Origin: a virus
Reading direction: 5' to 3' (one strand)
IMG/VR virus record: IMGVR_UViG_3300028920_000073
DNA length: 64,000 nucleotides
In this document: in pieces, positions 3-51,557 of the stretch
How positions within the stretch are numbered: the first letter of the stretch is position 1
Layout of the letters: each line of letters opens with the position of its first letter
Notes under the pieces: generated by a model
What the model saw: the letters and a program-made list of their open reading frames with translations, nothing else
Database searches by the model: none
Told to the model about the DNA's origin: nothing
Translations under genes and position numbers: made by a program

Positions 3-2024
3 GCTTTAAGTGATACATATACGTTACTTTATCACGAAGCGGCAAAATTAAATATTCCGATGGATGAAATTAATACTCTTTTACCTATAATGCAAAAGAG
101 ATTAAAGTTAGTTACATCAGAAGGATTATTAAATGAAAAAGCATACAGAAGAGTTGGTACGGAAATTTTAAGGTTTTCAAAATATCTTGGAGTGGATGCT
201 ACAGAAGCTGTAGAAACATATAGAACATTCACAAAAAGATTAATGATGACAGAAAAAGAAGCTTCTGATGTTATGTCTAGTTTTAGTACTGATACCAGAG
301 TATTTACTACAATTCTTGGTGGAGCAAGAATGGAGTCAGATGCCGTTGCAAAAACATTTTTAGAGATACAACAAAACACAAGATACTGGACACAAGATGT
401 AAAATTGTTAAGTAATAGTTTAAACAGATATGTAGCTCTGCAAATATCCCAAGGAATAAGTATGGATAAATCCCTGGAAACTTTTAAATCCTTCAATGAC
501 TTACTTGAAAAACCTCCATCATTAACTGCTTGGGAAGTAGGTAATGATTTAATAAAAGAGTTAAGATCTACAGGTATAGATTGGACTAAAGATTTAAAAG
601 GTCAAGCAAATGCTTATGAAACACTAGAAAAACAATTTGGATTAACAAAAGGTGAAGCAAACGAATTAGCATTGTCGATGAAATTGATAAAAGAACCTGT
701 TACATTAGCAGAAGAAGTTACTGCAAAATTAGGAAAAACTACAAAAGGTCAAACAGCACTGTTCAAAAACTATTCAGAGAAGATAAGTCAATATGGTGCA
801 GCAGTAGGACTTGATTATATGAATGTAGATCCCGGTAAAATGGGTGCCATGCTTAAACTTATGAAAGATATAAAAGATGCAGAAGGAATGGAAAATTTTG
901 GAAGTGAGGAAGGTCTTGATAAACTACTAAGAAAGATAGCAAAAGGACAAGTAGATGCAGGAGAACTGATACTAGGAAAAGGGGAAACAATTGATGATTA
1001 CATCAATAAACAAAAAGAAATGTTCACTGGTATAAAAGGCAAAGGTAAAAAGGAAACAGATTCTATAGAAGGATTATCAACCGAAGCAAAAAAATTATTA
1101 GCATATCTTAAAAACCCAAAAAGTCAGTTTGCTCTTGGTCTTTTATCTCTAGGTGCAGCAGTGAGTTCTAACAAAGTAGCACTTTGGGCTAATACATCAG
1201 CACTAGAAGGAAGTGCTATTGGTGGAGCAGGAAGTGGATTTATAGGTGGAGCACAACAAGCAAAAAAATTAGCACCTCTTATGGCATTAGTTCCTTGGGC
1301 AACAGTAGCTGCTGGAGTATTTGCTACTATTCAAACAGGCAAACTAGTTAAAGAAATTGGAGGTTGGTGGAAAGCAAACAGTGAACAAAAAAAGGAAGCA
1401 AAGGAATCAGAAGGAAGAATAGAAGGATATCTCAGAGATCAATTTCCAGGTATGTCGGACGAAGACATTAAAGCACTAGCATCTTCAAGATCAGGATCTA
1501 GAAGAGTAATGGAAAAAAGAGCAGGAATATTTGGATCAACAAACCTTGTAGCTAGAGAAGCAACAAACGAAGAAACAAGAGCATTTGAAGCTAGTATAAT
1601 AAAAAAAGAAGTCGCAAGAATGAAAGCTGTTAGAGAATCCAAGTTTAAAGCAGGAGATTTATCAGGTAAGGATTACTTCAGTCAAGTAAGTAAAGAAGCT
1701 AGTATACTTAAAAGTATTGGATTAACATCTGATAAAGTGGAAGATTCAGTTTATAAAGCACTTATGAAAGCGGATGAGATAAAAAAGAAAAAAGCAGTAC
1801 TTACTAAACAAGCAGAAAAAGCAGAAGCAATAAAAGCAGTAGCTACAGGTGGAAACGTTGTTCAAACGTCACAAGGACAAGTAGCAATACCTGCTTATGC
1901 TAGTCAAGGAGAAAACGCAATATTAGAGAGTAAGTATGATCCTTCTACAGAGAAAGTTACTTTTGAGTTGATGCTAGATCAATATATAGCCCAAATAAAT
2001 TCAAAAAATAAAGGTAAACCATAA
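3..2024 (+). CDS. Tape-measure-like tail protein (5' truncated at window edge)
   Basis: Frame is open from position 3 through the ATG at 60; long Ala/Lys/Glu-rich helical protein with a Gly/Ala-rich hydrophobic segment (ALMALVPWATVAAGVFAT) typical of tape measure proteins. Confidence 0.6.
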   Translation, partial: ALSDTYTLLYHEAAKLNIPMDEINTLLPIMQKRLKLVTSEGLLNEKAYRRVGTEILRFSKYLGVDATEAVETYRTFTKRLMMTEKEASDVMSSFSTDTRVFTTILGGARMESDAVAKTFLEIQQNTRYWTQDVKLLSNSLNRYVALQISQGISMDKSLETFKSFNDLLEKPPSLTAWEVGNDLIKELRSTGIDWTKDLKGQANAYETLEKQFGLTKGEANELALSMKLIKEPVTLAEEVTAKLGKTTKGQTALFKNYSEKISQYGAAVGLDYMNVDPGKMGAMLKLMKDIKDAEGMENFGSEEGLDKLLRKIAKGQVDAGELILGKGETIDDYINKQKEMFTGIKGKGKKETDSIEGLSTEAKKLLAYLKNPKSQFALGLLSLGAAVSSNKVALWANTSALEGSAIGGAGSGFIGGAQQAKKLAPLMALVPWATVAAGVFATIQTGKLVKEIGGWWKANSEQKKEAKESEGRIEGYLRDQFPGMSDEDIKALASSRSGSRRVMEKRAGIFGSTNLVAREATNEETRAFEASIIKKEVARMKAVRESKFKAGDLSGKDYFSQVSKEASILKSIGLTSDKVEDSVYKALMKADEIKKKKAVLTKQAEKAEAIKAVATGGNVVQTSQGQVAIPAYASQGENAILESKYDPSTEKVTFELMLDQYIAQINSKNKGKP

Positions 2025-2034
2025 CACAACAACA
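2022..2034 (+). promoter_or_regulatory. TAACACAA leader motif
   Basis: TAACACAACAACA starting at the upstream stop codon, directly before SD AGGAG. Confidence 0.55.
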
Positions 2035-2043
2035 GGAGACAAG

Positions 2044-2280
2044 ATGACTGTAGCACTAACACAAGCGTTTCAAAGAAAAGAAGTAATAGTTAAAAAATTT
2101 GTTACGGGAGAAGTTATTATAAAATTTCCTCCAGAATTGAAAATTGAAAATATCCTTATAAATAACAACAATGATGTTGTCCTAACAAACAGAAAAAACG
2201 TTGATATTAAAGCATTAAAAAAATCTAATTTAAAAAGGCTACTTGAAATAAATATGCTTGGTCTTGTTTTTAACGATTAA
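2044..2280 (+). CDS. Hypothetical protein
   Basis: 78 aa ORF with SD AGGAG. Confidence 0.7.
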   Translation: MTVALTQAFQRKEVIVKKFVTGEVIIKFPPELKIENILINNNNDVVLTNRKNVDIKALKKSNLKRLLEINMLGLVFND

Positions 2281-2291
2281 GGAGTAACACA

Positions 2292-2690
2292 ATGACACAA
2301 CAAACAGAAAAAGGTTTTTTAGTTAGCTTGAAAGGTTTTATAACCACATATATAGTTCCTATTATATTGTTTATAATAACGATATTGGGAGTAATAGCTT
2401 TTATTACAGGCAAAGGACAAGAAGTTTTTAAATGGATAGCACAACTTAAACATAGTAATAAGAAAAAAAAGTATAAGGAAACTGTAAGAAAAGCTATGGT
2501 TAAAGTAGAAAAACGTGAAGAAAAAATAAAAGAAATTGAAGAAGCTATCACACAAAACAAAGGAGACATTAATAAACATAAAACAAAATTGAATCAACTT
2601 GAAATTGAAAAGAAACAATTTGAACAAAAAGCTGATGAAGCAAAGAAAAATGAACAAGAGTTTATGGATTTAGTAGATGATGAGTTATGA
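2292..2690 (+). CDS. Membrane-anchored coiled-coil protein (possible spanin/lysis accessory)
   Basis: One N-terminal TM helix followed by Lys/Glu coiled coil; SD AAGGAG. Confidence 0.5.
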   Translation: MTQQTEKGFLVSLKGFITTYIVPIILFIITILGVIAFITGKGQEVFKWIAQLKHSNKKKKYKETVRKAMVKVEKREEKIKEIEEAITQNKGDINKHKTKLNQLEIEKKQFEQKADEAKKNEQEFMDLVDDEL

Positions 2691-7476: not shown

Positions 7477-7887
7477 ATGTTTTTAATTATAAAGAAGGAA
7501 AACGAACCTCTTATTGTTATAAGAGATGATGTTTTAATAACTGGTGTTTATGATATAAAATACACGTATACAATTAATAACTATAACACTACATTTAAAT
7601 ATAATAGTACATCTAATCTTGGAGGACCTGGAAAAATAGAAGTTGGAAAGGAAGAAACTATTGAATTTGATACTACAAGTAGAAATATAAACGTCAAAGG
7701 AAAAGTTCCAAACTTAAACATAAGTACAAACGGAAGAACATTTAGTAATGCATCTGGTGTAAACATTAAAGCTTTAAATGATGATGTTTATATAAATATA
7801 GTATCAACTGCTAAAACAAAAGCAACACATACAACAAAAGGACATCCTAATTTTAATAATGGTTTTAACGAGAGTTTCAATAGATAA
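7477..7887 (+). CDS. Hypothetical beta-rich protein
   Basis: 136 aa ORF coupled to terL. Confidence 0.65.
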   Translation: MFLIIKKENEPLIVIRDDVLITGVYDIKYTYTINNYNTTFKYNSTSNLGGPGKIEVGKEETIEFDTTSRNINVKGKVPNLNISTNGRTFSNASGVNIKALNDDVYINIVSTAKTKATHTTKGHPNFNNGFNESFNR

Positions 7888-10800
7888 TGGAAGATCTTTT
7901 ATTTAAAAAAGACAGTCTAATAACAGATGTTTTTAATCCAGAGGATTATGCTGATGAAATTATCATGCATAATATTGATCCTGGATTACTAGAAGATCTT
8001 GATGAAAAAGAAATTCCACGTCCTGCAAATTTTCTTGAGTGTACTGTTGGAAAAGATTTTCTTAATACATCAATATTACCAAGACAGTTACAAATAGCTT
8101 CTTTGTTTTTTGGTGAAATATGTTTCGATTGCTCTGATAAAGAACTGGTATACAACATGTATGATCAAGAAATAGGAGAGATAATAGAACGTATTTCTTT
8201 TTTAAGATTCGGTGTTTGTCCTAAATGTAAACAAACAAGAGCAGATATAGTTAAACAAGAATTATATCATAGACCTAACAGGTTATATGTGTTAGCTGGA
8301 CAAAGATGTGTTACAGGTGATACTTTAATACAAACTAAAGATGGTATATTTGAAATAGAAAAATTTGCAGAAAATAGAAAAGAAGGGTTTTCAGATTTAA
8401 AACTAAAAGTATTTAATGGTGATAAACTAGATACTGTAGATAAATTTTTTATAGGTAATAAAGAAAAAATAAAAACAATAAAAACTAAATATGGAACAAA
8501 AATATCTGGAACATATGATCATCCTATTAAAGTATTTGATGGTTCCTACAACTTACCTTTTAAAAAAATAAAAGATATAAAAAAAGATGATTTTATATTA
8601 ATAAAGTATGGACAAAATATATGGCCAAAAAATCCACCAAATATTTCATCTTTTAAAAGTAATTGGGATAAAAACTACGAAAAAGGTGAATGTTTAAGTT
8701 TTAAATTTGGTAAAAGTAGATTACATAATGATAAAATACCAATAAAAATTACTAAACAATTATCTAGATTGCTTGGTTATTTAGTATCTGAAGGAAGTTT
8801 TGAGGAATCAAGTTTTCAATTTGCGAACCATGATAAAAAACTTTTAAAAGATTTTAGTGATATTGCTATTAAACTATTTGGATCAAATGTTGTTAATATA
8901 CATAAAAAATATATACAAATATCTTCTACAAAAGTAACAAAATTTTTAAATTATATAGGATGTTATGGTACATCCTATAAAAAGGAAGTTCCTTGGTGTA
9001 TATTACAATCTCCAAAACTAATTGTATCTGAATTTTTAAAATCTTATTTTGAAGGAGATGGAGGTTTAGAAAAAAGAGATGTATCTTGTTCATCAGTATC
9101 AGAAAAATTAATTGATCAATTAAGAATATTGTTATTTAATTTTGGTATTTTTTCAAAAAAAAGAAAAAAGCCTATGAAATATTGGGATTATAAAAAGTAT
9201 GTTTATATTTTAAATATATCTTCTCCTGAGTTTCTTAAAATGTTTAAAAAACATATTAATTTTATATCAGATAAAAAAATAAAAAAATTAAATGAAAAAA
9301 TTAAGTGGTATGATAATAAAAGAACAAATAATGCTCCTTTCATCCATGAATATTTAAAACCTTTAAACAACTTTTTCAAAGAAACAATACAACTTTACAA
9401 AAAAATATTAATTAGTAAAAAATTAACTAAAAACATAAACAATATTGAATACTTTGATAGGGTTGGATATGAAAGTGTATTCGGAAAAAAAGATGTTTTA
9501 AGGAGAATAGGAAACAATGTAGGTTATAATAATCGTAGTTTAACAAGAAAATCATTATCTGATTTTTTAGATATATTACTAAACACTGAATATTTTTCTT
9601 TTAGATGGGATAAGGAACTAACAAAAAGAATAAAGTTTTTAATGTGGGTTAATAACAATAAAGTTCTTTTTGATTCAGTTAAAGAAATAAAATATTCAAA
9701 AGCAGTAACCTATGACTTCCACATTCCAAAAACTCATCAATTTTGGAGTAACGGATGTATATCACATAACTCTGGAAAGAGTATAGAAGTATCTATTATA
9801 TCACATTATCACACTATAAGATATCTTACACTAGAAAATAATGATGGTAAAAGAATTCCCCATTATAAAATGTTTGGTATGCCACCATCTCCTATATACT
9901 GGACGTTTACAGCTTCTACATTAAAACAAGCATATGAAAACTTATGGGACCCTTTTAGAGGTTATTATGATAATGCTCCTTGGTATAAAAATTTTAATTC
10001 TCTTTTAAATGATTATGGAAGAAAAAAAGGAGAAAAGCTTTTTTCTGATCCTCAAACTTATTTAAGTTACCATCATAAAAAAGTCGGGTTAATGTGTGAG
10101 TCTCCAAACAAGACAAGACTTCGTGGTAAAACACGTTATGGAGAATCAATTGATGAATTATCATGGTACGACCTAGTTACAGACGAAGATTCAAAACTTG
10201 GATCAGCCGAAGAAATATGCAAAGCACTAAATAACAGTTTGAGAACTTTAAGAATGAAAGCTCTTAAACAATATGAAAAAGGTAATTTTGATTGTCCAAC
10301 TGCCATAGAAGTAAACATATCTTCTCCTGCTGATGTAAACGATATAATGATGCGTAGAAATAGAGAAGCAAAAAGATCAAAATCAATGATGAGCTTCAAA
10401 TATTGTCTTTCTGGAGACAGTCTTATACAAACAGAAAAAGGTTTAAAACGTATTGATGAAATTAACAGCAATATAAAAATATTAGGTGAAACAAGGAAGG
10501 TCAATTTAAGTGAATGGCATTATACAGGTAAAAAAGATCTTTTACAAATCACAAGTGAAACAGGACATTGTTTGAATTCTTCTAAAACTCATAAAATAAA
10601 AACATTTTATAAAAATAATTTTAAATGGGTTAAAGCAAAAGATTTAAAAGTAGGAGATATAATATGTATTAATCCTTTTGAATTTACAAGAAAAAGTAAA
10701 CTCAAATTAAAATTAACACCTTTTAGATTCTTTATAGAGGAATCAAAAAATCCTTGGTCAATAACAAAAGTTAATCCTCCTAATAAAATGAGTATAGAAT

Positions 10801-12712: not shown

Positions 12713-13057
12713 ATGGCAATTAAAGCAAAAAATCTAGTTGAACTTATCAATAAGAAAAAATCATTAAAGCTTAAACCAAACGAAGTAAATGCTATTGTGA
12801 ATAAATTAAAAATAGCTGACATTCGTGTTGTAAGAGATAAAGATATAACGAGTGTAACAAAACTAATAATTAAAGCTTCAAGAAGTAAAGCTCCAACTAT
12901 TAAACACACAGTAGTAACAGCAGGAGCATCTGATGTGTTTAAAAGAAAATGTCCAAGATGTAAAGCATCAATGGAAGAAGTTAAACTTTTAAGAAGAGAA
13001 GCTGATTATTGTCCTGAAGATAGAATTGTTTTACCTCGTAAGGTACAGGAGAGTTAA
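12713..13057 (+). CDS. Small basic zinc-ribbon protein
   Basis: CPRC...CPED motif; lies between terL and portal. Confidence 0.65.
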   Translation: MAIKAKNLVELINKKKSLKLKPNEVNAIVNKLKIADIRVVRDKDITSVTKLIIKASRSKAPTIKHTVVTAGASDVFKRKCPRCKASMEEVKLLRREADYCPEDRIVLPRKVQES

Positions 13058-16698: not shown

Positions 16699-16711
16699 TA
16701 ACACAGTAACA
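16699..16711 (+). promoter_or_regulatory. TAACACA leader motif
   Basis: TAACACAGTAACA immediately after the portal stop and before SD GGAGG. Confidence 0.5.
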
Positions 16712-25102: not shown

Positions 25103-25115
25103 TAACACAAAAACA
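25103..25115 (+). promoter_or_regulatory. TAACACAA leader motif
   Basis: TAACACAAAAACA followed by GGAGG. Confidence 0.55.
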
Positions 25116-26465: not shown

Positions 26466-26506
26466 AAATATGATGAATATAATATCACAAAATCATAGGA
26501 ACATTT

Positions 26507-28195: not shown

Positions 28196-28219
28196 TAACA
28201 CAACATCACAATAACACAG
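28196..28219 (+). promoter_or_regulatory. Three-unit TAACACAA-type leader
   Basis: TAACACAA|CATCACAA|TAACACAG then GAG SD. Confidence 0.55.
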
Positions 28220-28228
28220 GAGATAAAA

Positions 28229-28930
28229 ATGGAAGCGGAAGAAAAGATTAAAACAGAAAATAAAATGAAGCACGTAGAAAATTTTTATGAAGACATTCTT
28301 TATGATCTTTCTGATTCAGAAGAAAAAGGAAAAACAATAAACGGTATTGATTCTTCAAGTATAGTAAAACCAAAAATAATAACTAACGAAGAAAAAAATA
28401 TTAAAATAGATATTGGAAAAATTCTTAATTTTTTCCATCCAGAAAGAAAGTGTGCTTATAGTGATAAGGAAGATGATGGTTTATTGTGGATAGATACTAA
28501 TAGGAAAAACATTTTAATAACAAATCTAATAAGAGTAAATACAGATTACCAAAGTAAAATAGGAATAGGAAAGTTTGTTTATATATCTAGAAGTGAAGAT
28601 ATTGATCTAGGAATAGATAATATTATTGTTAACTATAAAACATTATTACCATGTTCTATCGATGGACAAACATACCTTAATGATGGATTTAATCAGTATG
28701 TAACATCTATTTGGAAAAAGAATATACAAGAAAATATAAAAAGTGGTTTACCAAAATCATATGTTCTTATTTATCTTTGGAAAGTTTTTAGTCATATCTT
28801 TAAAATAAAAGGATTAAGAGAGATAACTCTTAGTATAAAAAATGAAAGTCCTGTAACATCTTCAGTATCCTATTCAATGAACTATATGGAGTTTTTAAAC
28901 ATAACAAACAATGCTCTTTTTGATGTATAA
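28229..28930 (+). CDS. Hypothetical protein
   Basis: 233 aa, SD AGGAG. Confidence 0.7.
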   Translation: MEAEEKIKTENKMKHVENFYEDILYDLSDSEEKGKTINGIDSSSIVKPKIITNEEKNIKIDIGKILNFFHPERKCAYSDKEDDGLLWIDTNRKNILITNLIRVNTDYQSKIGIGKFVYISRSEDIDLGIDNIIVNYKTLLPCSIDGQTYLNDGFNQYVTSIWKKNIQENIKSGLPKSYVLIYLWKVFSHIFKIKGLREITLSIKNESPVTSSVSYSMNYMEFLNITNNALFDV

Positions 28931-28940
28931 CACAATAACA
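28928..28940 (+). promoter_or_regulatory. TAACACAA leader motif
   Basis: TAACACAATAACA beginning at the stop codon. Confidence 0.55.
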
Positions 28941-28965
28941 TAACTACATTAATATGGAGGTAGTT

Positions 28966-29127
28966 ATGAATGTAAGAAGTTATATTCGTAAGGAATATGA
29001 AGAAATGAAATTGTATATTTTAAAAGAAAGAAAAAATAATTCAATCAAAAGTGATAACGATCTTGCTATTGAATGGGTTAGAAAATACGCTAAGGATTTT
29101 TCAGATAAAAACACAATAACACAATAA
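28966..29127 (+). CDS. Small hypothetical protein (53 aa)
   Basis: SD GGAGG; MNVRSYIRKEYEEMKLY...AIEWVRKYAKDF; stop falls inside the octamer array. Confidence 0.6.
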   Translation: MNVRSYIRKEYEEMKLYILKERKNNSIKSDNDLAIEWVRKYAKDFSDKNTITQ

Positions 29128-29150
29128 CACAATAACACAATAACACAATA
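29111..29150 (+). repeat. Perfect 5 x 8-bp tandem repeat (ACACAATA)
   Basis: Directly read; degenerate units continue to about 29163. Confidence 0.95.
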
Positions 29151-29213
29151 ACATAACATCAAAAAACCACAAGATGTTATAAAAATTGTTCAAAACCAAA
29201 AAAGGAGATTAAA

Positions 29214-30660: not shown

Positions 30661-30673
30661 TAACACAAAAACA
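30661..30673 (+). promoter_or_regulatory. TAACACAA leader motif
   Basis: TAACACAAAAACA immediately after TGA, upstream of primase. Confidence 0.55.
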
Positions 30674-31871: not shown

Positions 31872-31920
31872 AGCAAGTAGCATAATATACAATTGGAAAC
31901 AAACAAACAAAGGAGTAAAA

Positions 31921-32083: not shown

Positions 32084-32104
32084 TAACACAATATCACAAT
32101 AACA
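32084..32104 (+). promoter_or_regulatory. Multi-unit TAACACAA-type leader
   Basis: TAACACAA|TATCACAA|TAACA abutting the helicase ATG. Confidence 0.55.
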
Positions 32105-36462: not shown

Positions 36463-36920
36463 AAACAATCTTTTGTATAGCTTCAAAAGAGTTTAACTGG
36501 GTTAAATTGTTAGAAAGTAAAAACATTTATAGTATTTACTATTGTAATGGGTTTGATGAAGAAAAAATCCAACATTCATTAGAATGTCCTGTAAATGAAA
36601 AAGCTTTACAAAACAGAGATAAATATGAGGAATGTATAACCTTAAAAAAAGATTTAAATAATATTAATTTAAATTCAATAGGTTCTTTAGATTTAATTGA
36701 GACTTCTGTTTTAATAAGATCTTGTATTGTTATTTATGATACAAGAATGAATATAGGATTTGATAAATTGATATATGCAACAAACTTAGATATACCTATT
36801 ATCACAATATCAACAGATGTAACAAACTATTATCCAGTTGGAATTTATTCTACAGCAGTTATAACAAATCCAACTGAAAATAACATTATTAAAGTTGTTA
36901 AGGGTATTGTAAATGGCTGA
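36453..36920 (+). CDS. Degenerate nucleoside 2-deoxyribosyltransferase-like protein
   Basis: LIRSCIVIYD..NIGFDKLIYATNLDIPIITI resembles NDT pattern but lacks the catalytic Glu. Confidence 0.35.
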   Translation: MIKKTIFCIASKEFNWVKLLESKNIYSIYYCNGFDEEKIQHSLECPVNEKALQNRDKYEECITLKKDLNNINLNSIGSLDLIETSVLIRSCIVIYDTRMNIGFDKLIYATNLDIPIITISTDVTNYYPVGIYSTAVITNPTENNIIKVVKGIVNG

Positions 36921-41283: not shown

Positions 41284-41655
41284 ATGTTGAAGAGATCTTA
41301 TATAATTAAAAATGGTAAAATAGAACAAACGTTAAGATCAAAGAAAAAAAGAAAAACATCATTAACAAGTATACATAGACAACTGATATTAATATGCAAA
41401 GAATTAAAATTAAGATATGTAATAGAAAAAAAATTTGGTAGATATAAGGCTGATATATATCTTCCTGATTATAACATCATTCTTGAAGCAGACGGATCTT
41501 ATTGGCATAATCTAAACAAAAAAAGAGATAGAATAAGAGACATAAGATTGGAAAGAGATTTTAAAGTTAAAGTTTACAGATTTTCAGATATCGAACTAGA
41601 GAACGAACCAAGAACAGTATTTTCTAAACTAAAAGAAATAACAACAAACAAATAA
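41284..41655 (+). CDS. DUF559/Vsr-like PD-(D/E)xK endonuclease
   Basis: RYKADIYLP..IILEADGSYWH...RDRIRD..L...VYRF; start may be 41200. Confidence 0.8.
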   Translation: MLKRSYIIKNGKIEQTLRSKKKRKTSLTSIHRQLILICKELKLRYVIEKKFGRYKADIYLPDYNIILEADGSYWHNLNKKRDRIRDIRLERDFKVKVYRFSDIELENEPRTVFSKLKEITTNK

Positions 41656-41665: not shown

Positions 41666-41911
41666 ATGAATTTATATGTAGGAAACCTTAACTACAGGAC
41701 AACAGAAGAAGAATTAAAAGATATTTTTTCACAACATGGAAATGTTGTAAGTGCAAAGATCATAAACGATAGAGAAACAGGACGACCTAAAGGATTCGGT
41801 TTTGTTGAAATGAGTAATGATGATCAAGCAAGAAAAGCTATTGCAGAACTTGATGGATCAGAACAATCCGGACGGCAGATAAAAGTTAATGAAGCAAGAC
41901 CTAGAAAATAA
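41666..41911 (+). CDS. Bacterial-type RRM RNA-binding protein
   Basis: RNP2 LYVGNL and RNP1 KGFGFVEM; ends IKVNEARPR. Confidence 0.95.
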   Translation: MNLYVGNLNYRTTEEELKDIFSQHGNVVSAKIINDRETGRPKGFGFVEMSNDDQARKAIAELDGSEQSGRQIKVNEARPRK

Positions 41912-42561: not shown

Positions 42562-42921
42562 ATGGCAATAGCCCTTTTATATAGGAAAGATATTGTAAAA
42601 GTAATTGAAAAATCATATAACGTTAAGGTACCTGAAAAATTCCTAGATAAAATACCTGAAAAATTAAAGGTCAAACTTAAAGAAGGTGAAATTGAAAAAC
42701 TAGAAGTTAAACCAAAGGATGAACCTAACAATGAACCTGTTGTTGAATCAAAAAAAGAACAAAAGGAAGTAAAAAAACCAGAAAAAAACGGGTTAACAAA
42801 AAGCCAAACAGAACAATTAGAAAAAAAGAATTTTTTCACAAAACCTCCAAAGGAAAAACCCAAGCAACCAGAAACATATGATAACAGAAGACCACCTAAA
42901 TCAAAGACATTTATAAAATGA
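42562..42921 (+). CDS. Lys/Glu/Pro-rich hypothetical protein
   Basis: SD AGGAG; low-complexity C-terminus. Confidence 0.65.
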   Translation: MAIALLYRKDIVKVIEKSYNVKVPEKFLDKIPEKLKVKLKEGEIEKLEVKPKDEPNNEPVVESKKEQKEVKKPEKNGLTKSQTEQLEKKNFFTKPPKEKPKQPETYDNRRPPKSKTFIK

Positions 42922-45900
42922 GTATAGTTAAAAAATCTTGGTCAAAATTAGGTAAGACAACTGTATTAGGTACTTACTCTGAAGTCATGGATTACATAGA
43001 CTTCCTAATGTATGATGCAAATTGTCCTGTAGCATTTGATTCTGAAACAGATAATCTAAATAAAATAGAGAATACTTTAGCTGTTATGCAGTTTGCAACT
43101 GATACTAAAGAAGGTGTTATTTTTTATAATGATCATAAGTTTGGTAAATTCGATCCAGATCATCTTATAAAAATAAGAAAAAAATTCAGAAAATTGTTTA
43201 GACTTAAAAACAGTGTTAAATACTGGGTTATGCATAATGGTACATTTGATTTAGCTCAATTAATGGTTCAGCTTGGTATTGATTATGTATATGCTCCTAT
43301 AATTGATACAATGGTTTTTGCATTTCTTTTAAACGAAAATAGACTTCATTCAGATGTTGATGGTCCATATACATTAAAAACATTAGCTAAAGAAAAATTT
43401 AATTTTACTAGTTATGATGAAGATGTATTAGTAAAGAGATCAGAAGGAAATATACTCGACTTAACATATAAACAATTATCTGATTACTCTGCAATGGATG
43501 CATATGTAACAATGAGGTTACTAAAAGTATTAATAGCTTATGCAGACAAACAAAAATATAGAAAGAAGGTTATAAAACTTTTAAAGCATCTTATTTCTCC
43601 CTGTATTAAAATGTTCACAAGAATGTCTTTAAACGGTGCTTATGTAGATAAGGATCTTTTAAAGTTATTACTTAGATCAGATTCTCCTATAAGACATAGA
43701 GTTGATGAAATAAACAGAGAATACAAAAAAGATAAAAGATTAATAAAAGTAAACGAAGAATTATTTAGAAGTGAATCTCCAGGAGGAGTAAAACCAATGT
43801 TTAATACTGGAACTCCTTGGATGTTAGATTTATCAAAGAAAAAGCATAAGGAGATGATTTTCTATACATCAAAACATGGTTTCCGTTATAAAGACAAAAA
43901 GAATAAAAAGGGAAACTATGAGATGGGAAAAAAGTTCCAACAAAAATATAAAAACACAAATAAAATTGTCGCAATGTTTGAGGAACAACAACAATTAAAC
44001 AAACTTAAAAACTCATATATAGATGCTATTTTTAAACAGTTTAATGTTAGAGATGAAGAACTTAGTGATAACAAAGATGGAAGAGTAAGAGCTAACTTTC
44101 ATATGATAAGAACTGTTACAGGAAGAACGGCTTCATGTATTTCTAAAGGGACTTTTATAGAAGTAGTAAGAGATGTAAAAAGATATCCAAAAGGAATAAA
44201 AATTGAAAATATTAAAAAGGGAGATTTGGTATACTGTTTTAATAAAAACTGTAAACCTACTTTAAGAGAAGTTGAATGGTCTGGAAAAACAGGCTACAGG
44301 GAAGTAATAAGAGTACATTGGCAAAGTGCAGGTAATAGTGGATATTTAGATGTCACACCAGAACATAAAATAAGACTTGTAAACGGAAAATACAAAGAAG
44401 CACATAAATTAATTAAAGGTGATAGAACTTTAGCTATGCATAGGCATACTTGTTTAGATAAAGTTACATTTACAGGTCAAGATACAAGACATGATCATAG
44501 ATTTATTTGGGAAAAAACAAATAACAAAAAATTATCAAAAGAAGATAAGATACATCATATAGACGAAAATCATTATAATAACATCCCATCTAATTTAGAA
44601 AAAACAAATCTAAGCCTTCATGCTAAATTACATAACAATAAAGAAAAACATCCAAACTGGAGAAACATTTCCAGATATAGTATTATTAGATTATTATTCC
44701 TGTGTGGAGGAAAACCAGTTATAGCTAAAAATAAATATAAAGGCGATTACTCTTGTTTAATGAATAAAATCAAAAGATATAAAATAAACTGGAAGGATAT
44801 ATCTTTTAGATTTGGGAAAGATGGAAAATACATATCAAAACAAAGATTAAAAAAGTATGTGGGAATAAATATAGAAACCGCAACAAAGGAATTAAAAATA
44901 GGAAGTAGACGATTAAAAGAATTATCTTCTTTTTATAGTTTACCTTATGGAATACTATCAAAAAAAACATACCAACCTAAGTTGGGTATGCAAAAAAGAA
45001 AAGGCAATTCAGTTTTAAATAATCATGTAATAACAAAAATAGAAATTTTAAATAAAAAAGTTGATGTATATGATATAGAAGTAAAAGGAATACATAACTT
45101 TATAGCAAATGAAATCTGTGTACATAACTCAAATCCTAATCTTCAACAAGTTCCAAGAGCTGATAATCCAGTTAAAAAACTCATAAAAAGTTTATACTGT
45201 GCATCACCTGGAAAAATAAGTGTTCAAGTGGATTTTGCTTCTAACGAATATAGATTATGGGCAGCATTATCTGAAGACTCTTATTTGTGTGATCTACTAA
45301 ACGATTCTTATGAGGCAGGAGAAAAGTTTAGAAGAAACCCAAGTAAAAAGCTAGAAAAGAGATATAAGGATATGGCTGATTTTCATAAGATAACAGCTTC
45401 AATTATGTATAACAAAAATATCAGTGATGTGACAAAGGATTTAAGACAAATATCTAAGGGTATTAACTTCGGTTTACTTTATGGTATGGGAATAAAAACA
45501 TTAGCAGTTCAGTTAGGAAAATCTGTTGATGAAACACAGGAGCTAAAAAATAAGGTATTTAATAAATTTAAAGATGGTAGTAAGTGGATTGAAAACACAC
45601 AAAGAATTGTTCAGTTACAAGGGTATGTTGAAACTCCTATATTTAGACGTAGAAGATTACATAATCTTTTGAAAAGTGGTGATGAAGAGAAGGTAGCAAG
45701 AGCTATAAGATTTGCTGTTAACTCTCCTGTACAAGCTATAGCATCTGACGTTTCTTTGATATCATGTTTTTTATTAGATGAATATATTAGAAAAAATAAA
45801 AAGGATTGGTTACTTGTAAACAGTGTTCATGATTCATGTATGGCAGAAATATATCCAGATGATTTAATGGAGTATGCAAGAGTAGTTAGACAAATATTTT

Positions 45901-46157
45901 GTATAGATGTTGTGAATTACATAGATAAAAAATTTGGATGGAGAATGCCTTGTCCTGTTGATATTGACTTTGAAGTTAGTCAAGGTAAAGCATGGAAATG
46001 TAAAAAATGTAATAACCAGTATATATACTCTGAAAAAAGATGTCCTAAATGTGAGTCCCTTAAAAAAGAAAAAATAAAACTTAATAATGGATGGGGAACT
46101 TTAGTTGATTTCAATGAAACAAAACAAGATTATGAAAGAGTAAGTATGGGTTTTTAA
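42918..46157 (+). CDS. polA: Family A DNA polymerase (3'-5' exo + pol) with intein (about 748 aa after splicing)
   Basis: ExoI FDSET, ExoII HNGTFD, ExoIII YSAMD; TGRTAS|SNPNLQQVP; motif A VDFASNEYR, B KGINFGLLYG, C VHDS. Confidence 0.93.
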   Translation: MSIVKKSWSKLGKTTVLGTYSEVMDYIDFLMYDANCPVAFDSETDNLNKIENTLAVMQFATDTKEGVIFYNDHKFGKFDPDHLIKIRKKFRKLFRLKNSVKYWVMHNGTFDLAQLMVQLGIDYVYAPIIDTMVFAFLLNENRLHSDVDGPYTLKTLAKEKFNFTSYDEDVLVKRSEGNILDLTYKQLSDYSAMDAYVTMRLLKVLIAYADKQKYRKKVIKLLKHLISPCIKMFTRMSLNGAYVDKDLLKLLLRSDSPIRHRVDEINREYKKDKRLIKVNEELFRSESPGGVKPMFNTGTPWMLDLSKKKHKEMIFYTSKHGFRYKDKKNKKGNYEMGKKFQQKYKNTNKIVAMFEEQQQLNKLKNSYIDAIFKQFNVRDEELSDNKDGRVRANFHMIRTVTGRTASCISKGTFIEVVRDVKRYPKGIKIENIKKGDLVYCFNKNCKPTLREVEWSGKTGYREVIRVHWQSAGNSGYLDVTPEHKIRLVNGKYKEAHKLIKGDRTLAMHRHTCLDKVTFTGQDTRHDHRFIWEKTNNKKLSKEDKIHHIDENHYNNIPSNLEKTNLSLHAKLHNNKEKHPNWRNISRYSIIRLLFLCGGKPVIAKNKYKGDYSCLMNKIKRYKINWKDISFRFGKDGKYISKQRLKKYVGINIETATKELKIGSRRLKELSSFYSLPYGILSKKTYQPKLGMQKRKGNSVLNNHVITKIEILNKKVDVYDIEVKGIHNFIANEICVHNSNPNLQQVPRADNPVKKLIKSLYCASPGKISVQVDFASNEYRLWAALSEDSYLCDLLNDSYEAGEKFRRNPSKKLEKRYKDMADFHKITASIMYNKNISDVTKDLRQISKGINFGLLYGMGIKTLAVQLGKSVDETQELKNKVFNKFKDGSKWIENTQRIVQLQGYVETPIFRRRRLHNLLKSGDEEKVARAIRFAVNSPVQAIASDVSLISCFLLDEYIRKNKKDWLLVNSVHDSCMAEIYPDDLMEYARVVRQIFCIDVVNYIDKKFGWRMPCPVDIDFEVSQGKAWKCKKCNNQYIYSEKRCPKCESLKKEKIKLNNGWGTLVDFNETKQDYERVSMGF
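44136..45128 (+). mobile_element. Intein in PolA (331 aa, HNH HEN)
   Basis: CISKGT...EICVHN|S; HRFIWE...IHHIDENHYNN.PSNL HNH motif. Confidence 0.92.
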
Positions 46158-48473: not shown

Positions 48474-50855
48474 ATGGATAAAAAGGGTGATATAAAAACA
48501 GAAGTAAGAGTTATTAAAACTCTCTGTGATGGAAAATCAAAACATAAAGCAGAACTTTGGAATGTTCTTGATAACGATTTTTTTAGTTATCCTGATACAA
48601 TAGAAATATTTGAAAGATTAAAAGAACTACTAAGTAAAAACAAAACAGATGTACCTTCCTTAAAAGTTTTTAAAAAGGATATAAGTTTATCAAAAAATGC
48701 AAAAATAGTACTAAAGAATAAATCAAAGAAACTATCAAAAAGTTCTGACGTTGAAACTTCTATAAATATATTAAAGGAGTATAGAAGTAAAAGAATAATT
48801 GCGGAAGGGATTAAAAAGAGTTACAGCTTTTTAAAGGAAGGTAAACTTCGTAAATCAGAAATGATAATAGAAAAAGCTTTATTTAGAAGTAGATCAACAT
48901 CGTCAATAAAACGTCTTGTTCATGGAGGAGTAGAAGATCCAGGTAGCTATGAGGTATATAAAAAGGTTCTAAGCAAAGATGATGTTTCCTTAATACCAAC
49001 TGGATTTAAAGAATTTGACAAAGTAGTAGGAGGTTTTAAAAGAGGAAATCTTGTTATAATAACAGCCAATACAGGAGGTGGAAAATGCTTCAAAAAAAAT
49101 ACTAAAGTTCTTATGTACAATGGAAATATTAAAAACATACAAGATATAAAACCAAACGATAAAGTTATGGGAATAGATTCCAATTGTAGAACTGTTAAAA
49201 GCATACATAATGGAAAATCTATTATGTATAAAGTAACCCCAGTTAAAGGGGAACCTTTTGTTTGTAACAAAAATCATATATTATCATTACAATTAAACAG
49301 AAAAACAGGTAAATATGAAAAGGATTGCATTGTTAATATTAGTATTGAAGATTACTTAAAAGAAACAATTTCTTTTAAACATTATGCTAAACTGTTTAGA
49401 ACAGGAGTAGCATTTAAAGAACAAAAAACAAAATTACCACCATATCTTTTAGGACTTTTTTTAGGAGATGGGACTGTAGAATGTAAAAGAATAACTACCC
49501 CAGATAAAGAAATAATAAGTTATTTAAAAAAGTATTCCAAAAAAATAGGATATAGATTATCAAAAACAGAAACCCCAAAAGTAAAATCTGATGTTTATTT
49601 TATAGCTGCTAACAAACAGGGTAAAAGGGAAAGAGTAAATAAAGTAAAAGAATATTTAGATGAAGCATTACATGGAAAAGAAAAATATATACCTAAAGAG
49701 TATCTTATAAACTCAGAGCAAAAAAGATTAAAACTTCTTGCAGGTTTACTGGATACAGATGGATTTCTTCATCATAATTTTTATGAAATAACCACAAAAT
49801 ACAAAAGTCTCAAAAGGGATATTCTTTTCTTATCTAGGTCTTTGGGTTTTGGAGCAACTTGTAAAGACAAGTTTGTTTGTATTAATAATAAAAAATTAAA
49901 ATACTATAGAATAAACATAACAGGAGATGTAAATAAAATACCATGTAAAGTAAAAAGAAGAATAGCTTTACCAAGAAAACAGATTAAAAGTGTTCTAAGA
50001 ACTGGATTCAAAATAAAAAAACTAAAAAAAGATTCATACTATGGTTTTGAATTAAAAGAAAAAGATGGTTTGTTTTTATTAAATGATTTTACTGTTGTTC
50101 ATAATTCAACATTTTCTCAACAGCTTCTTATTAATATGTATAGAAAAAGATTCAGTGTTGCTATTATATCACTAGAAATGGAAGAAGATGAGCTAATGGA
50201 AAGACTGTTAGCAAACATAGCTCATGTTAAGCATTCAAGAATAAGATTAAAAAAGATAGGATCAAAAGAAAGAAGAAAAATAAAGGAAGCATTTGCTACC
50301 TTTGAAGAAGTTGGTCTTAATTATGGTAACAGATATACATTTTATTGTCCAACAGAAGACTTTACTTTACCACAACTAATGGCTCAGATAAAACATATAA
50401 ATTATGATGTTGTTATACTTGATTATGCTAGTTTAGTACAAGCTGAATCAGACAGAGAAACAGAAGCTAAAAGTTTAGGAGAGCTCGCAAGAAAATTTAA
50501 AAGATTAGGTGTTTCAAATAATTCAGTTAACGTATTATTAGCACAAGGTAAAGATGATGGAGATGTAAAATATTCAAGAGCAATTAAGGAACATGCTAAT
50601 TACTGGTTAAATTGGAATTACAGCAAAGAAGATAGAATAAAACAAAGTGTAGATATAAATTTAGGTAAAGCAAGAAATGCACCTCTATTTACGTTTCCTT
50701 CTTCAATGGAAGTTAAATATATGAAAATGAGAGATTTAACACCTTCCTTAAAAGCAAAACTTGAAGAAGAAGGAATTGAAAAGGAAATGAAAAAGGAAGA
50801 AGCTGAAATAGCTGAAAAGAAAATAAAAGAGAATGATGACTTTGATGATTTTTAA
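48474..50855 (+). CDS. dnaB: DnaB-type replicative helicase with intein (about 453 aa after splicing)
   Basis: TGFKEFDKVVGGFKRGNLVII; Walker A ANTGGGK|S; IISLEM; VILDYASL; arginine finger GKARN. Confidence 0.92.
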   Translation: MDKKGDIKTEVRVIKTLCDGKSKHKAELWNVLDNDFFSYPDTIEIFERLKELLSKNKTDVPSLKVFKKDISLSKNAKIVLKNKSKKLSKSSDVETSINILKEYRSKRIIAEGIKKSYSFLKEGKLRKSEMIIEKALFRSRSTSSIKRLVHGGVEDPGSYEVYKKVLSKDDVSLIPTGFKEFDKVVGGFKRGNLVIITANTGGGKCFKKNTKVLMYNGNIKNIQDIKPNDKVMGIDSNCRTVKSIHNGKSIMYKVTPVKGEPFVCNKNHILSLQLNRKTGKYEKDCIVNISIEDYLKETISFKHYAKLFRTGVAFKEQKTKLPPYLLGLFLGDGTVECKRITTPDKEIISYLKKYSKKIGYRLSKTETPKVKSDVYFIAANKQGKRERVNKVKEYLDEALHGKEKYIPKEYLINSEQKRLKLLAGLLDTDGFLHHNFYEITTKYKSLKRDILFLSRSLGFGATCKDKFVCINNKKLKYYRINITGDVNKIPCKVKRRIALPRKQIKSVLRTGFKIKKLKKDSYYGFELKEKDGLFLLNDFTVVHNSTFSQQLLINMYRKRFSVAIISLEMEEDELMERLLANIAHVKHSRIRLKKIGSKERRKIKEAFATFEEVGLNYGNRYTFYCPTEDFTLPQLMAQIKHINYDVVILDYASLVQAESDRETEAKSLGELARKFKRLGVSNNSVNVLLAQGKDDGDVKYSRAIKEHANYWLNWNYSKEDRIKQSVDINLGKARNAPLFTFPSSMEVKYMKMRDLTPSLKAKLEEEGIEKEMKKEEAEIAEKKIKENDDFDDF
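49086..50105 (+). mobile_element. Intein in DnaB P-loop (340 aa, LAGLIDADG HEN)
   Basis: CFKKNT...FTVVHN|S; LLGLFLGDG and LLAGLLDTDG. Confidence 0.92.
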
Positions 50856-50875
50856 CATTTAAAAAGGAAATAAAA

Positions 50876-51547
50876 ATGAGATTTGACGAATATCAAAAAA
50901 AGGCTTCTACTACAGCTATATTTATGAACAAAGTTAAAGAAAAATATGGTGACCAAATACCAGAAGAAATATATAAAGTTATGGGTATATCTTATTGTGC
51001 TTTGGGTATGGGAGAATCTGGAGAGGTTCAAGAAAAAATAAATAATATAATAATAGATAAATCTGGATTAATAGATGACGATGATATAAAGCAAATAAAA
51101 GGAGAAATGGGAGATCAACTTTGGTATATATCTGCAATGTGTACATTCTTAGATTTTCAAATGCAAAGCATTGCTAATGGATATATTGATTTTGAAATAT
51201 TTCAAAATAATGTAGTAACAATAGATATATCAAAATTAAGAATCGACAATATAGATATACATGATAATATTGCACATATTATGGAAGTATCTTGTTGTGC
51301 TTTAGGTATGGGAGAATCTGGTCAAATACAAGGTAAAGTTAAAAAAATAATAAGAGATGCTGGTGGTGACATAAATAAAAAAATTATTGATAACATTGTA
51401 AAAAGTATGACAATACAACTTGAATGGATTGCTAATATGTGTAATCTACTAAACATAAATATGTCTGATGTTGCAGAAGGTAATATAGATAAACTTTTTG
51501 ATAGGAAAGATAGAGGAGTTTTAACAGGCAGTGGAGATAACAGATAA
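50876..51547 (+). CDS. mazG: MazG-like nucleotide pyrophosphohydrolase, internally duplicated
   Basis: CALGMGESGE...EMGDQLWY; C-terminal NIDKLFDRKDRGVLTGSGDNR; CALGMGESG occurs twice 100 codons apart. Confidence 0.8.
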   Translation: MRFDEYQKKASTTAIFMNKVKEKYGDQIPEEIYKVMGISYCALGMGESGEVQEKINNIIIDKSGLIDDDDIKQIKGEMGDQLWYISAMCTFLDFQMQSIANGYIDFEIFQNNVVTIDISKLRIDNIDIHDNIAHIMEVSCCALGMGESGQIQGKVKKIIRDAGGDINKKIIDNIVKSMTIQLEWIANMCNLLNINMSDVAEGNIDKLFDRKDRGVLTGSGDNR

Positions 51548-51557
51548 CACAAAAACA
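51545..51557 (+). promoter_or_regulatory. TAACACAA leader motif
   Basis: TAACACAAAAACA beginning at the mazG stop, upstream of the clamp gene. Confidence 0.55.

What the first reader, a model, noticed from the sequence alone, without database searches (positions are those of the whole stretch)
2022..51557. Phage-specific 8-nt-periodic TAACACAA element at gene boundaries
Seen: TAACACAA (or one- or two-base variants) sits just upstream of a ribosome-binding site or start at 2022, 2285, 16699, 25103, 26483, 28196, 28928, 29109, 30661, 32084 and 51545, always on the sense strand. It recurs with strict 8-nt phasing (TAACACAA|TATCACAA|TAACA at 32084; TAACACAA|CATCACAA|TAACACAG at 28196; TAACACAA|TGACACAA at 2285). 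In three cases the TAA is the upstream stop codon, and in two more it follows the stop directly. Downstream genes include primase, SF2 helicase, clamp and the response regulator. It was not seen upstream of the minus-strand genes. Inference: a phage regulon signal, either a middle/late promoter or operator, an RNA processing site, or a single-stranded translational enhancer bound by a protein.
Basis: partly seen in the sequence, partly recalled or inferred. Interest (0 to 1): 0.8.

Follow-up and report, generated by a model that had tools for sequence, protein, structure and literature searches.

The report
C/A-rich octamer leader before gene starts
A short C/A-rich sequence (TAACACAA, usually followed in phase by a second AACA) really does sit between the stop codon and the ribosome-binding site of at least ten genes of this uncultured phage. 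It is not phage-specific: the same repeat precedes start codons in unrelated phages and in many bacteria, so it is most likely an untranslated mRNA leader that helps ribosomes start.

Summary

- **Enrichment:** TAACACAA occurs 17 times against 5.5 expected. TAACACA is the most enriched intergenic 7-mer, about 30-fold and above the Shine-Dalgarno sequence.
- **Functional unit:** it is a 13-mer, TAACACA(A/G)-N-(A/G)-W-CA. It has 15 matches, all on the + strand; 14 lie at 10 gene boundaries and none on the minus strand.
- **Setting:** the unit lies in G-free tracts of 20-68 nt that usually end at the SD.

Two sites rule out a promoter for the downstream gene. At 2285 the motif is the SD-AUG spacer. 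At 32084 three units abut an SD-less ATG.

The element is not phage-specific. The double octamer lies just 5' of the SD or ATG of a T4-type major head gene, an SSB, a GroES-like gene and a portal gene in unrelated viral contigs. In bacterial genomes (over half Bacteroidota) it lies upstream of housekeeping genes, 33 times in sense against 9 antisense.

My best reading (about 0.5) is a C/A-rich, ACA-type translational enhancer or ribosome standby leader. Rivals are an operator for an RNA-binding protein (the phage encodes an RRM protein), a phage promoter, a processing site, and a recombination linker.

I rate it a new variant of a known kind, of moderate interest.

The parts
2022..2034 (+). 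13-mer TAACACAACAACA. Its TAA is the stop codon of ORF 3-2024. GGAG follows directly; start codon at 2044 (78-aa ORF).
2285..2297 (+). 13-mer TAACACAATGACA. It fills the spacer between the SD AAGGAG (2279-2284) and the ATG at 2292, and runs into the ORF. This is incompatible with a promoter for that gene.
16699..16711 (+). 13-mer TAACACAGTAACA directly after the TAG stop of the intein-bearing portal gene. GGAGG follows; start at 16723 (response-regulator receiver).
25103..25115 (+). 13-mer TAACACAAAAACA within a 25-nt G-free tract; start at 25147 (106-aa ORF).
26483..26490 (+). Weak variant TATCACAA within a 22-nt G-free tract; start at 26507. It does not match the 13-mer, so membership is uncertain.
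28196..28219 (+). Three phased units (TAACACAA, CATCACAA, TAACACAG) running into the SD; start at 28229. This is the left boundary of a gene cassette that exists as divergent alleles in the source sample.
28928..28943 (+). Two phased units (TAACACAA, TAACATAA). The TAA is the stop of gene 28229-28930. The start of the small ORF is at 28954 or 28968. This is the right boundary of the variable cassette.
29109..29156 (+). Six phased units (AAACACAA, four exact TAACACAA, TAACATAA) inside the longest G-free tract of the + strand region (29105-29172). The small ORF ends inside the array. The next start is at 29214 (212 aa, phrog_17686).
30661..30673 (+). 13-mer TAACACAAAAACA directly after the TGA stop; weak SD; start at 30688 (Toprim primase).
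32084..32103 (+). Two and a half phased units (TAACACAA, TATCACAA, TAAC) abutting the ATG at 32104 of the intein-bearing SF2 helicase. There is no SD. The start is confirmed by alignment of N-termini with relatives.
51545..51557 (+). 13-mer TAACACAAAAACA. Its TAA is the stop of the MazG-domain gene. Start at 51575 (sliding-clamp-like, phrog_947).
31897..31911 (+). Related but different C/A-rich leader, (AAAC)x3.8, directly 5' of AAGGAG; start at 31921. Similar C/A-rich leaders without the octamer lie at about 26193-26214 and 41635-41655.
41666..41911 (+). 81-aa single-RRM RNA-binding protein with canonical RNP2 and RNP1 motifs. It is a speculative candidate trans-acting factor only.

Best explanation
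The element is an untranslated 5'-leader module on the mRNA: a G-free, C/A-rich tract built from 8-nt-phased AACA/ACA units. The core is TAACACA(A/G)-N-A-W-CA.

**Position.** It sits between the upstream stop codon and the Shine-Dalgarno sequence. Where no SD exists, it abuts the AUG directly.

**Proposed action.** It acts at translation initiation as a C/A-rich (ACA-type) enhancer or ribosome standby site. It keeps the region ahead of the start single-stranded and gives the 30S subunit, probably through S1-like contacts, a landing platform for de novo initiation on genes that are not translationally coupled to the gene before.

**What is shown.**
- Position, strand, enrichment, phasing and G-free context.
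- Incompatibility with a promoter at two sites.
- Convergent use of the same sequence before starts in unrelated phages and bacteria.

**What is inferred.**
- The enhancer activity itself.
- The ribosomal contact.
- That the exact octamer spread in this lineage by tandem slippage and by recombination between leaders.
For: 1. **Strictly untranslated and sense-strand.** All 14 intergenic 13-mer matches begin at or after the upstream stop codon. None is on the minus strand and only one is inside a gene.
2. **Architecture.** The order is stop codon, then a G-free tract of 20-31 nt (68 nt at 29105), then SD, then AUG. The tract ends 6-12 nt before the start in most sites.
3. **Accessibility.** Predicted unpaired probability averages about 0.68 for the motif blocks against 0.51 +/- 0.17 for random blocks.
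4. **Flexible geometry.** Copy number (1.5 to 6 units) and distance to the start (0 to about 60 nt) both vary. Published ACA enhancers show no strict positioning either.
5. **Site 2285.** The motif is the SD-AUG spacer.
6. **Site 32084.** Three units abut an SD-less ATG whose position is confirmed by relatives.
7. **Other leaders in the same phage** are C/A-rich without the octamer: 26193, 31897 and 41635.
8. **Unrelated IMG/VR contigs.** The double octamer lies directly 5' of the SD of a T4-type major head gene. That gene has a separate TATAAATA 12 nt upstream, which is the T4 late-promoter consensus by my own knowledge. It also precedes an SSB, a GroES-like gene and a portal gene.
9. **GTDB genomes.** In 33 cases the double octamer is sense-upstream of an ATG ORF within 60 nt, against 9 antisense (p = 3e-4). 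The downstream genes include EtfA, ProRS, DnaE, RuvC, Tgt and 2-oxoacid:ferredoxin oxidoreductase subunits. Many hits are in SD-less Bacteroidota.
10. **Literature.** ACA motifs and C/A-rich elements upstream of the SD enhance translation independently of position, and ACAA repeats work without an SD (PMC3879156). CA-repeat tails of 16-18 nt give maximal standby activity (PMC5934652).
Against: - **Precision.** The motif is far more exact than 'C/A-rich' requires: 10 loci against 0.37 expected even after keeping each spacer's own composition. The second box is in strict 8-nt phase. This looks like specific recognition or common descent.
- **Coverage.** Only about a third of + strand genes with a usable spacer carry it, and no minus-strand gene does.
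- **Relatives.** Phages at about 40% protein identity, with similar gene order and SD use, lack it at gene boundaries. They show only a weaker AACAGTAACA or TAAACA theme.
- **Unknowns.** There are no expression data, and host and ribosome properties are unknown.
Confidence: 0.5

Rival explanations
1. **Operator for a sequence-specific single-strand RNA-binding protein.** The phased UAACACAA/AACA units would be bound by a phage- or host-encoded protein, for example the phage's own 81-aa RRM protein. That protein would co-regulate translation or stability of a set of mRNAs, in the manner of a T4 RegA-type post-transcriptional regulon.
For: - The motif is much more exact than composition predicts, and its second box is in strict 8-nt phase.
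- RRM domains typically read 5-8 nt (bioRxiv 10.1101/2021.04.27.441718).
- The phage encodes a canonical RRM_1 protein, E = 4.8e-26.
- No RRM homolog was found in the regions held for relatives that lack the motif expansion, including the syntenic stretch between the helicase module and PolA.
- Targets include replication genes (primase, helicase, clamp). By my own knowledge, T4 RegA targets replication genes as well.
Against: - The same double octamer serves as a leader in unrelated phages and bacterial housekeeping genes, where no shared dedicated factor is expected.
- Twenty-six RRM-encoding viral loci show no TAACACA enrichment and no common leader.
- The phage RRM is 60-70% identical to ordinary bacterial cold-inducible-type RRM proteins.
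- Published RbpB ligands give no C/A-rich motif.
- The co-occurrence is n = 1.
Confidence: 0.2
2. **Promoter for a phage-directed RNA polymerase.** The first AACA box would lie at about -11 to -8, and the invariant CA at +11/+12 of the motif would be the -1/+1 start. This resembles the AR9 non-virion RNAP late promoter, AACA-N6-T-A/G.
For: - The geometry AACA-N6-C-A is invariant in 10 of 10 loci. It matches the published AR9 layout except for C in place of T at -1 (PMC7598289).
- The phage is a fragment of a jumbo-phage-like genome: relatives are 232-252 kb, and a relative carries a tubulin gene.
- At nine sites the predicted start would lie upstream of the start codon.
Against: - At 2285 the predicted start falls inside the ORF, downstream of a perfect SD and ATG.
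- At 32084 it would leave an 8-nt leader.
- Tandem arrays would create four promoters 8 nt apart.
- All copies avoid the upstream coding sequence, which promoters need not do.
- The CA at +11/+12 is simply the second AACA box of an 8-nt repeat.
- No RNAP-like domain was found in the window's large proteins.
- In the T4-type contig L099 the same sequence lies downstream of a separate late-promoter-like TATAAATA.
- Relatives do not keep the N6-Y-R spacing.
- The sigma-70 scan shows no excess over shuffles.
Confidence: 0.1
3. **RNA processing site.** The single-stranded ACA-rich tract would be the target of an endoribonuclease (host RNase E/Y-like, an ACA-specific MazF-type enzyme or a phage enzyme). 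Cleavage would cut polycistronic transcripts at gene boundaries and so set differential stability.
For: - The element lies at cistron boundaries in long co-directional gene arrays.
- It is single-stranded and contains ACA.
- ACA is the MazF recognition sequence, as noted in PMC3879156.
Against: - The octamer is not avoided inside coding sequence: 11 observed against 9.1 expected under synonymous shuffling.
- No nuclease candidate was identified.
- Use before single monocistronic-looking housekeeping genes in bacteria does not call for processing.
Confidence: 0.07
4. **Recombination linker, or neutral spread.** The repeated leader would persist mainly because it provides microhomology for swapping gene cassettes, like the PeSL cassettes of T4-type phages or the boundary sequences of lambdoid phages. 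Tandem slippage would expand it, and it would have little direct role in expression.
For: - In the probable source sample, gene 28229-28930 exists as two or three divergent alleles on an otherwise identical backbone.
- The assembly bubble opens at 28216/28217, inside the left array, and closes at 28927, 1 nt before the right motif.
- The 29109 array is perfect, which suggests recent slippage.
- The expansion is lineage-specific.
Against: - There is only one cassette example. The pattern equally fits purifying selection on a functional leader.
- This reading does not explain the strict sense orientation, the placement just 5' of the SD, or the convergent use in bacteria.
Confidence: 0.08
5. **Double-stranded DNA operator of the 'stoperator' type.** An asymmetric 13-bp site at gene ends, co-oriented with transcription, would be bound by a phage repressor that blocks elongation.
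For: The element is 13 nt, asymmetric, in short intergenic regions, often overlaps stop codons and has a single orientation. These are the properties described for Cluster A mycobacteriophage stoperators.
Against: - Overlapping tandem copies at 8-bp spacing do not suit a duplex-binding repressor.
- No repressor or integrase was found in the window.
- The same sequence stands before bacterial housekeeping genes.
Confidence: 0.03

Closest known systems
C/A-rich (ACA) translational enhancers and CA-repeat ribosome standby tails of enterobacterial mRNAs (gltI, dppA, yifK; Sharma et al. 2007; Yang et al. 2014, PMC3879156; Sterk et al. 2018, PMC5934652)
   Same: - Single-stranded, G-poor tract rich in ACA, just upstream of or next to the SD.
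- Position-flexible.
- Works in multiple copies.
- The effective length of about 16-18 nt matches the two-to-three-unit arrays here.
- ACAA repeats can act without an SD, which fits site 32084.
   Different: - Here it is a discrete, near-exact 13-mer with strict 8-nt phasing, reused at ten or more gene boundaries of one phage.
- It often starts with the upstream stop codon.
- No sRNA partner of the GcvB type is known.
- Activity is untested.
Start-Associated Sequences (SAS) of Cluster K mycobacteriophages (Pope et al. 2011, PMC3203893)
   Same: - 13-nt asymmetric repeat in one orientation, immediately upstream of many gene starts.
- Sometimes overlaps the upstream stop codon.
- More conserved than rRNA pairing explains.
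- Function still unknown; a role in translation is proposed.
   Different: - SAS contains the SD itself and sits 3-7 bp from the start.
- The element here lies 5' of the SD at variable distance, occurs in tandem, and is not restricted to one phage cluster.
AR9 non-virion RNAP late promoter, AACA-N6-T-A/G(+1) (PMC7598289)
   Same: An AACA box followed, after six bases, by a pyrimidine-purine pair that is invariant here (C-A). Both are in jumbo-phage-like genomes.
   Different: - The predicted start is incompatible with site 2285.
- Tandem copies.
- No RNAP genes were found in the window.
- The second conserved part is another AACA box, not a start site.
- AR9 needs uracil DNA.
Stoperators of Cluster A mycobacteriophages
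   Same: 13-bp asymmetric sites in short intergenic regions near stop codons, co-oriented with transcription.
   Different: - Stoperators are duplex repressor sites in temperate phages.
- Here there are overlapping 8-nt tandem copies and no repressor, and the same sequence occurs in cellular leaders.
PeSL mobile regulatory cassettes of T4-type phages and boundary sequences of lambdoid phages
   Same: Repeated regulatory sequences that flank small variable genes and coincide with cassette-exchange junctions (one case here, 28217-28926).
   Different: PeSLs are an early promoter plus a stem-loop. Here there is no stem-loop and no promoter evidence, and there is a single example.

Membership tests
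C/A-rich (ACA) translational enhancer / ribosome standby leader | Lies in the untranslated leader, upstream of or adjacent to the SD or start codon, on the sense strand | tested here: met
   14 of 15 13-mer matches are intergenic, all on the + strand, and all begin at or after the upstream stop.
C/A-rich (ACA) translational enhancer / ribosome standby leader | C/A-rich, G-poor, with repeated ACA triplets | tested here: met
   G-free tracts of 20-68 nt at 9 of 11 sites, with C at 14-30% against an 11% background.
C/A-rich (ACA) translational enhancer / ribosome standby leader | Single-stranded in the mRNA | tested here: inconclusive
   Predicted unpaired probability averages about 0.68 against 0.51 +/- 0.17 for random blocks, but three sites score 0.42-0.53. 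This is prediction only.
C/A-rich (ACA) translational enhancer / ribosome standby leader | No strict spacing to the SD or AUG | tested here: met
   The distance from the end of the motif to the start ranges from 0 to about 60 nt.
C/A-rich (ACA) translational enhancer / ribosome standby leader | Mutation of the ACA units lowers translation; 30S or S1 binding is increased | not testable with these tools
   No expression data exist. No RNA run holds the phage.
AR9-type jumbo-phage late promoter | AACA at -11 to -8, six bases, then pyrimidine-purine at -1/+1 | tested here: met
   AACA-N6-CA is present in 10 of 10 loci. It is also explained by the 8-nt repeat itself.
AR9-type jumbo-phage late promoter | The predicted start lies upstream of the regulated gene's ribosome-binding site | tested here: not met
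   At 2285 the predicted start falls inside the ORF. At 32084 only 8 nt of leader remain.
AR9-type jumbo-phage late promoter | The phage encodes beta/beta'-like RNAP subunits | tested here: inconclusive
   None was detected in the window. The window is only about a quarter of a probable jumbo genome, and the relatives' records could not be searched.
Start-Associated Sequence (Cluster K) | Contains the SD core and sits 3-7 bp from the start codon | tested here: not met
   The motif lacks GGAG and lies 5' of the SD at variable distance.
Stoperator | Discrete duplex sites bound by an immunity repressor in a temperate phage | tested here: not met
   Overlapping tandem copies with an 8-nt period. 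No repressor or integrase domains were found in the scanned proteins.
RegA-type translational operator regulon | A dedicated RNA-binding repressor gene is present and its sites overlap initiation regions | tested here: inconclusive
   No RegA family hit was found. An RRM_1 protein is present, but there is no evidence that it binds the motif.

The most novel reading that the evidence does not exclude
The phased UAAC(A/G)CAA octamer would be a specifically recognised start-site element rather than merely unstructured RNA.

- It would be read either by a ribosome-associated factor or by single-RRM proteins.
- In this phage, a captured bacterial RRM protein (41666-41911) together with ten or more UAACACAA-N-AWCA leaders would form a post-transcriptional regulon covering replication and small middle genes.
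- In Bacteroidota, the same octamer repeats would act as an undescribed initiation enhancer on SD-blind ribosomes.
Probability: 0.18. Interest if true: 0.8.

Novelty: new variant of a known kind. Interest (0 to 1): 0.45.

Why it matters
C/A-rich enhancers are known from a handful of enterobacterial mRNAs, and how they work is still called puzzling (PMC5934652).

This window shows a natural, compact, phased form of such an element. One phage reuses it at ten or more gene boundaries, including one SD-less start of an essential helicase.

The follow-up shows that the same double octamer recurs before start codons of abundant phage proteins. It also recurs before housekeeping genes in many bacteria, especially Bacteroidota, whose ribosomes ignore SD sequences (PMC6847099, PMC13000453).

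The open-access library holds no paper containing the double octamer. The finding therefore supplies a defined sequence, ready-made natural variants (1.5 to 6 units, with and without an SD) and a candidate RNA-binding protein for testing how C/A-rich leaders recruit ribosomes.

For annotation, it also marks true gene starts and cassette boundaries in this phage.

Tried and rejected
- **Close relatives.**
  - There is no DNA match in cultured phages. The primase peptide scan of IMG/VR found nothing.
  - The nearest primase homologs are 40% identical or less.
  - A 67%-identical homolog of the 233-aa protein sits on a 968-bp contig whose DNA was not retrievable, and the JGI scan found nothing.
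- **Whole-record search of relatives** was not possible.
- **RNA evidence.** No RNA run holds the phage. The second holder, X2, carries the same phage at low depth, so it adds no comparison.
- **Rfam and tRNA scans** were empty.
- **The sigma-70 promoter and terminator scan** found no more than shuffles do.
- **Avoidance of the octamer in coding sequence** was not seen.
- **Function of the neighbouring genes.** The 212-aa, 233-aa and large unknown proteins gave no informative family, PDB, phage tblastn or Atlas match.
- **Association of RRM genes with the motif.** It is absent across 26 viral RRM loci. An apparent RRM hit in L099 was a portal-like ORF.
- **Complementarity of the motif to 16S rRNA.** I considered this but did not test it, because the host is unknown.
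- **Hfq (ARN)n, CsrA (ACA-GGA), Rho rut and boxA resemblances.** I considered these from memory. I set them aside as partial pattern matches with no test available.


Full report
**Source and layout.**
- The window is almost all of a 64.7-kb metagenomic contig. The contig comes from a marine-sediment sample. GC content is 28%.
- Genes run on the + strand up to 56127 and on the minus strand from 56131.
- The contig encodes terminase, portal and neck proteins interrupted by inteins, a Toprim primase, an SF2 helicase, PolA, a DnaB-like helicase, a clamp-like protein and other phage functions.
- The nearest relatives share about 40% protein identity and gene order, and lie on 232-252 kb contigs. 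The window is therefore probably about a quarter of a jumbo-phage-like genome.
- There is no close relative in cultured phages or IMG/VR.

**Observation.**
- The exact octamer occurs 17 times against 5.5 expected.
- Twelve copies lie in eight short intergenic loci.
- TAACACA is the most enriched intergenic 7-mer: 13 in 2.3 kb against 11 in 61 kb, about 30-fold, p = 3e-13. This exceeds AAGGAG.
- Shuffling each intergenic region on its own composition gives 0.37 loci against 10 observed. This is a discrete motif, not just a composition bias.
- Aligning one copy per locus shows a second conserved box in strict 8-nt phase. Positions 0-6 are invariant, A stands at +9 in nine of ten loci, A or T at +10, and C-A at +11/+12 in all ten.
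- The resulting 13-mer has 15 matches, all on the + strand. Fourteen lie at ten gene boundaries and one in coding sequence. The four purely coding octamers lack the second box.
- TRF confirms period-8 arrays at 28194, 29110 (5.5 perfect copies) and 32082.

**Anatomy.**
- Every intergenic copy begins at or after the upstream stop codon. In three cases the TAA is that stop, and in two the motif follows it directly.
- The motif sits in G-free tracts of 20-31 nt. At 29105-29172 the tract is 68 nt, the longest on the + strand part.
- These tracts usually end 6-12 nt before the start, that is, at the SD.
- Predicted accessibility is above background on average.
- Other leaders in the same phage are C/A-rich without the exact octamer.

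**RNA level or DNA level.**
- At 2285 the motif is the spacer between a perfect SD and the ATG, and it continues into the ORF.
- At 32084 two and a half units abut the ATG of the helicase, which has no SD. That start agrees with the N-termini of relatives. A promoter for the downstream gene cannot work at either site.
- The AR9 late promoter (AACA-N6-T-A/G; PMC7598289) has the same geometry as AACA-N6-CA here. However, the CA is simply the second AACA box of an 8-nt repeat, and tandem arrays would give promoters every 8 nt.
- No RNAP-like protein was found in the window. This is weak negative evidence, because most of the genome is missing.
- All copies avoid the upstream coding sequence. An RNA element that ribosomes must not run over needs this; a promoter does not.

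**Relatives.**
- Three lineages at about 40% identity lack TAACACAA at boundaries.
- They do show a weaker AACA theme. AACAGTAACA occurs three times in two spacers of one phage, including the spacer before the ortholog of the gene that follows the 5.5-copy array here. TAAACA and AAACAG are among the most enriched intergenic words in the others.
- Forty kb of that relative hold no further copies. The octamer expansion is therefore specific to this lineage.

**Generality.**
- *Viral contigs.*
  - The 16-mer made of two octamers occurs in 105 IMG/VR stretches.
  - In 14 of 82 distinct blocks it lies within 70 nt upstream of an SD-led ORF in sense, against 5 in antisense.
  - The downstream genes include a T4-type major head protein, an SSB, a GroES-like protein and a portal.
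  - In the T4-type contig a TATAAATA, the T4 late-promoter consensus by my own knowledge, lies 12 nt further upstream. The octamers there are therefore leader, not promoter.
- *Bacterial genomes.*
Of the 80 rows printed, 41 have Bacteroidota names.
  - Of 106 usable blocks, 33 lie sense-upstream of an ATG ORF within 60 nt, against 9 antisense (p = 3e-4). They often extend as TAACGCAA/TAACACAA arrays right up to the ATG.
  - The downstream genes are ordinary housekeeping genes: EtfA, ProRS, DnaE, RuvC, Tgt, oxidoreductase subunits and a peroxiredoxin.
- The element is therefore not phage-specific.
- The open-access library holds no paper with the double octamer.

**Mechanism.**
- These features fit the known class of C/A-rich, ACA-type translational enhancers and CA-repeat standby tails.
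- ACA triplets upstream of the SD raise translation up to 100-fold, independently of exact position. ACAA repeats support initiation without an SD (PMC3879156).
- CA tails of 16-18 nt give maximal standby activity, and S1 contacts mRNA about 11 nt upstream of the SD (PMC5934652).
- I take this as the best explanation, at about 0.5.
- What it does not explain is the precision and the 8-nt phase of the motif.

**A candidate factor.**
- The phage encodes an 81-aa single-RRM protein with canonical RNP motifs. RRM domains read 5-8 nt.
- The protein is 60-70% identical to common bacterial RRM proteins. It was not found in the regions held for relatives.
- Twenty-six other RRM-encoding viral loci show no such motif, and published RbpB ligands are not C/A-rich.
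- The link is therefore speculative, at about 0.2.

**Population observation.**
- In the probable source sample, gene 28229-28930 exists as two or three divergent alleles on an identical backbone.
- The divergent segment runs from 28217, inside the left array, to 28926, 1 nt before the right motif.
- The leaders therefore also mark, and may promote, cassette exchange. This is one case only.

**Verdict.** The feature is real, statistically strong and sharper than first described. It most likely acts on the mRNA at translation initiation. It is a new, phased and modular variant of a known kind of element, and it is shared with cellular genomes.

Noticed in passing
28217-28926: Gene 28229-28930 (233 aa, no family) exists as two or three divergent alleles (about 80% identity, with indels near the N-terminus) in the probable source sample, on an otherwise identical backbone. 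The variable segment is bounded exactly by the two motif blocks.
   Followed up: partly
41666-41911: Phage-encoded 81-aa single-RRM RNA-binding protein (RRM_1, E = 4.8e-26). It is 60-70% identical to bacterial cold-inducible-type RRM proteins, so it looks like a captured host gene. Its own leader is C/A-rich.
   Followed up: partly
28185-28193 (+), 59571 and 61119 (minus strand); L001, L002, L005, L112 intergenic regions: A second motif, (A)TCTGTAAAA(T)A, is conserved in the larger intergenic regions of the relatives (before primase and DnaB). It occurs three times in the window just upstream of starts. It is a candidate family-wide promoter-like element.
   Followed up: partly
L149, L156, L163, L173, L180, L193, L212, L224 and others (bacterial loci): In Bacteroidales and other Bacteroidota genomes, tandem TAACGCAA/TAACACAA octamers form the leader right up to the ATG of housekeeping genes. 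I found no description of this in the searched literature.
   Followed up: partly
36413-36463: Perfect 25-nt tandem duplication that includes an SD-like AGGTAGGG and an ATG, at the junction of genes 35847-36431 and 36453-36920. The initiation region has been duplicated.
   Followed up: no
29863-29888: Strong 11-bp hairpin (5 G-C pairs) between genes 29214-29852 and 29896-30660, without a T tract. It directly precedes the ATG.
   Followed up: no
26424-26460: Hairpin (CCTACCTTC ... GAAGGTAGG) in the 99-nt spacer, upstream of the TATCACAA variant and gene 26507.
   Followed up: no
7887-12704, 13057-16698, 21011-23914, 32104-34947, 42918-46157, 48474-50855: Six genes carry intein or homing-endonuclease insertions: terminase, portal, neck, SF2 helicase, PolA and DnaB-like helicase. 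This is an unusually high load for 64 kb.
   Followed up: partly
26801-27835; 27886-28152; 50876-51547; 52750-53550: Accessory genes: an ARPP-1 family protein, a VanZ-like small membrane protein, a MazG-domain pyrophosphohydrolase and a D12-class adenine methyltransferase.
   Followed up: no
55425-55457: Three perfect 11-bp repeats (TATCGGTATTT) after the tubulin-like gene region, as another first-stage note says. TRF confirms them.
   Followed up: no
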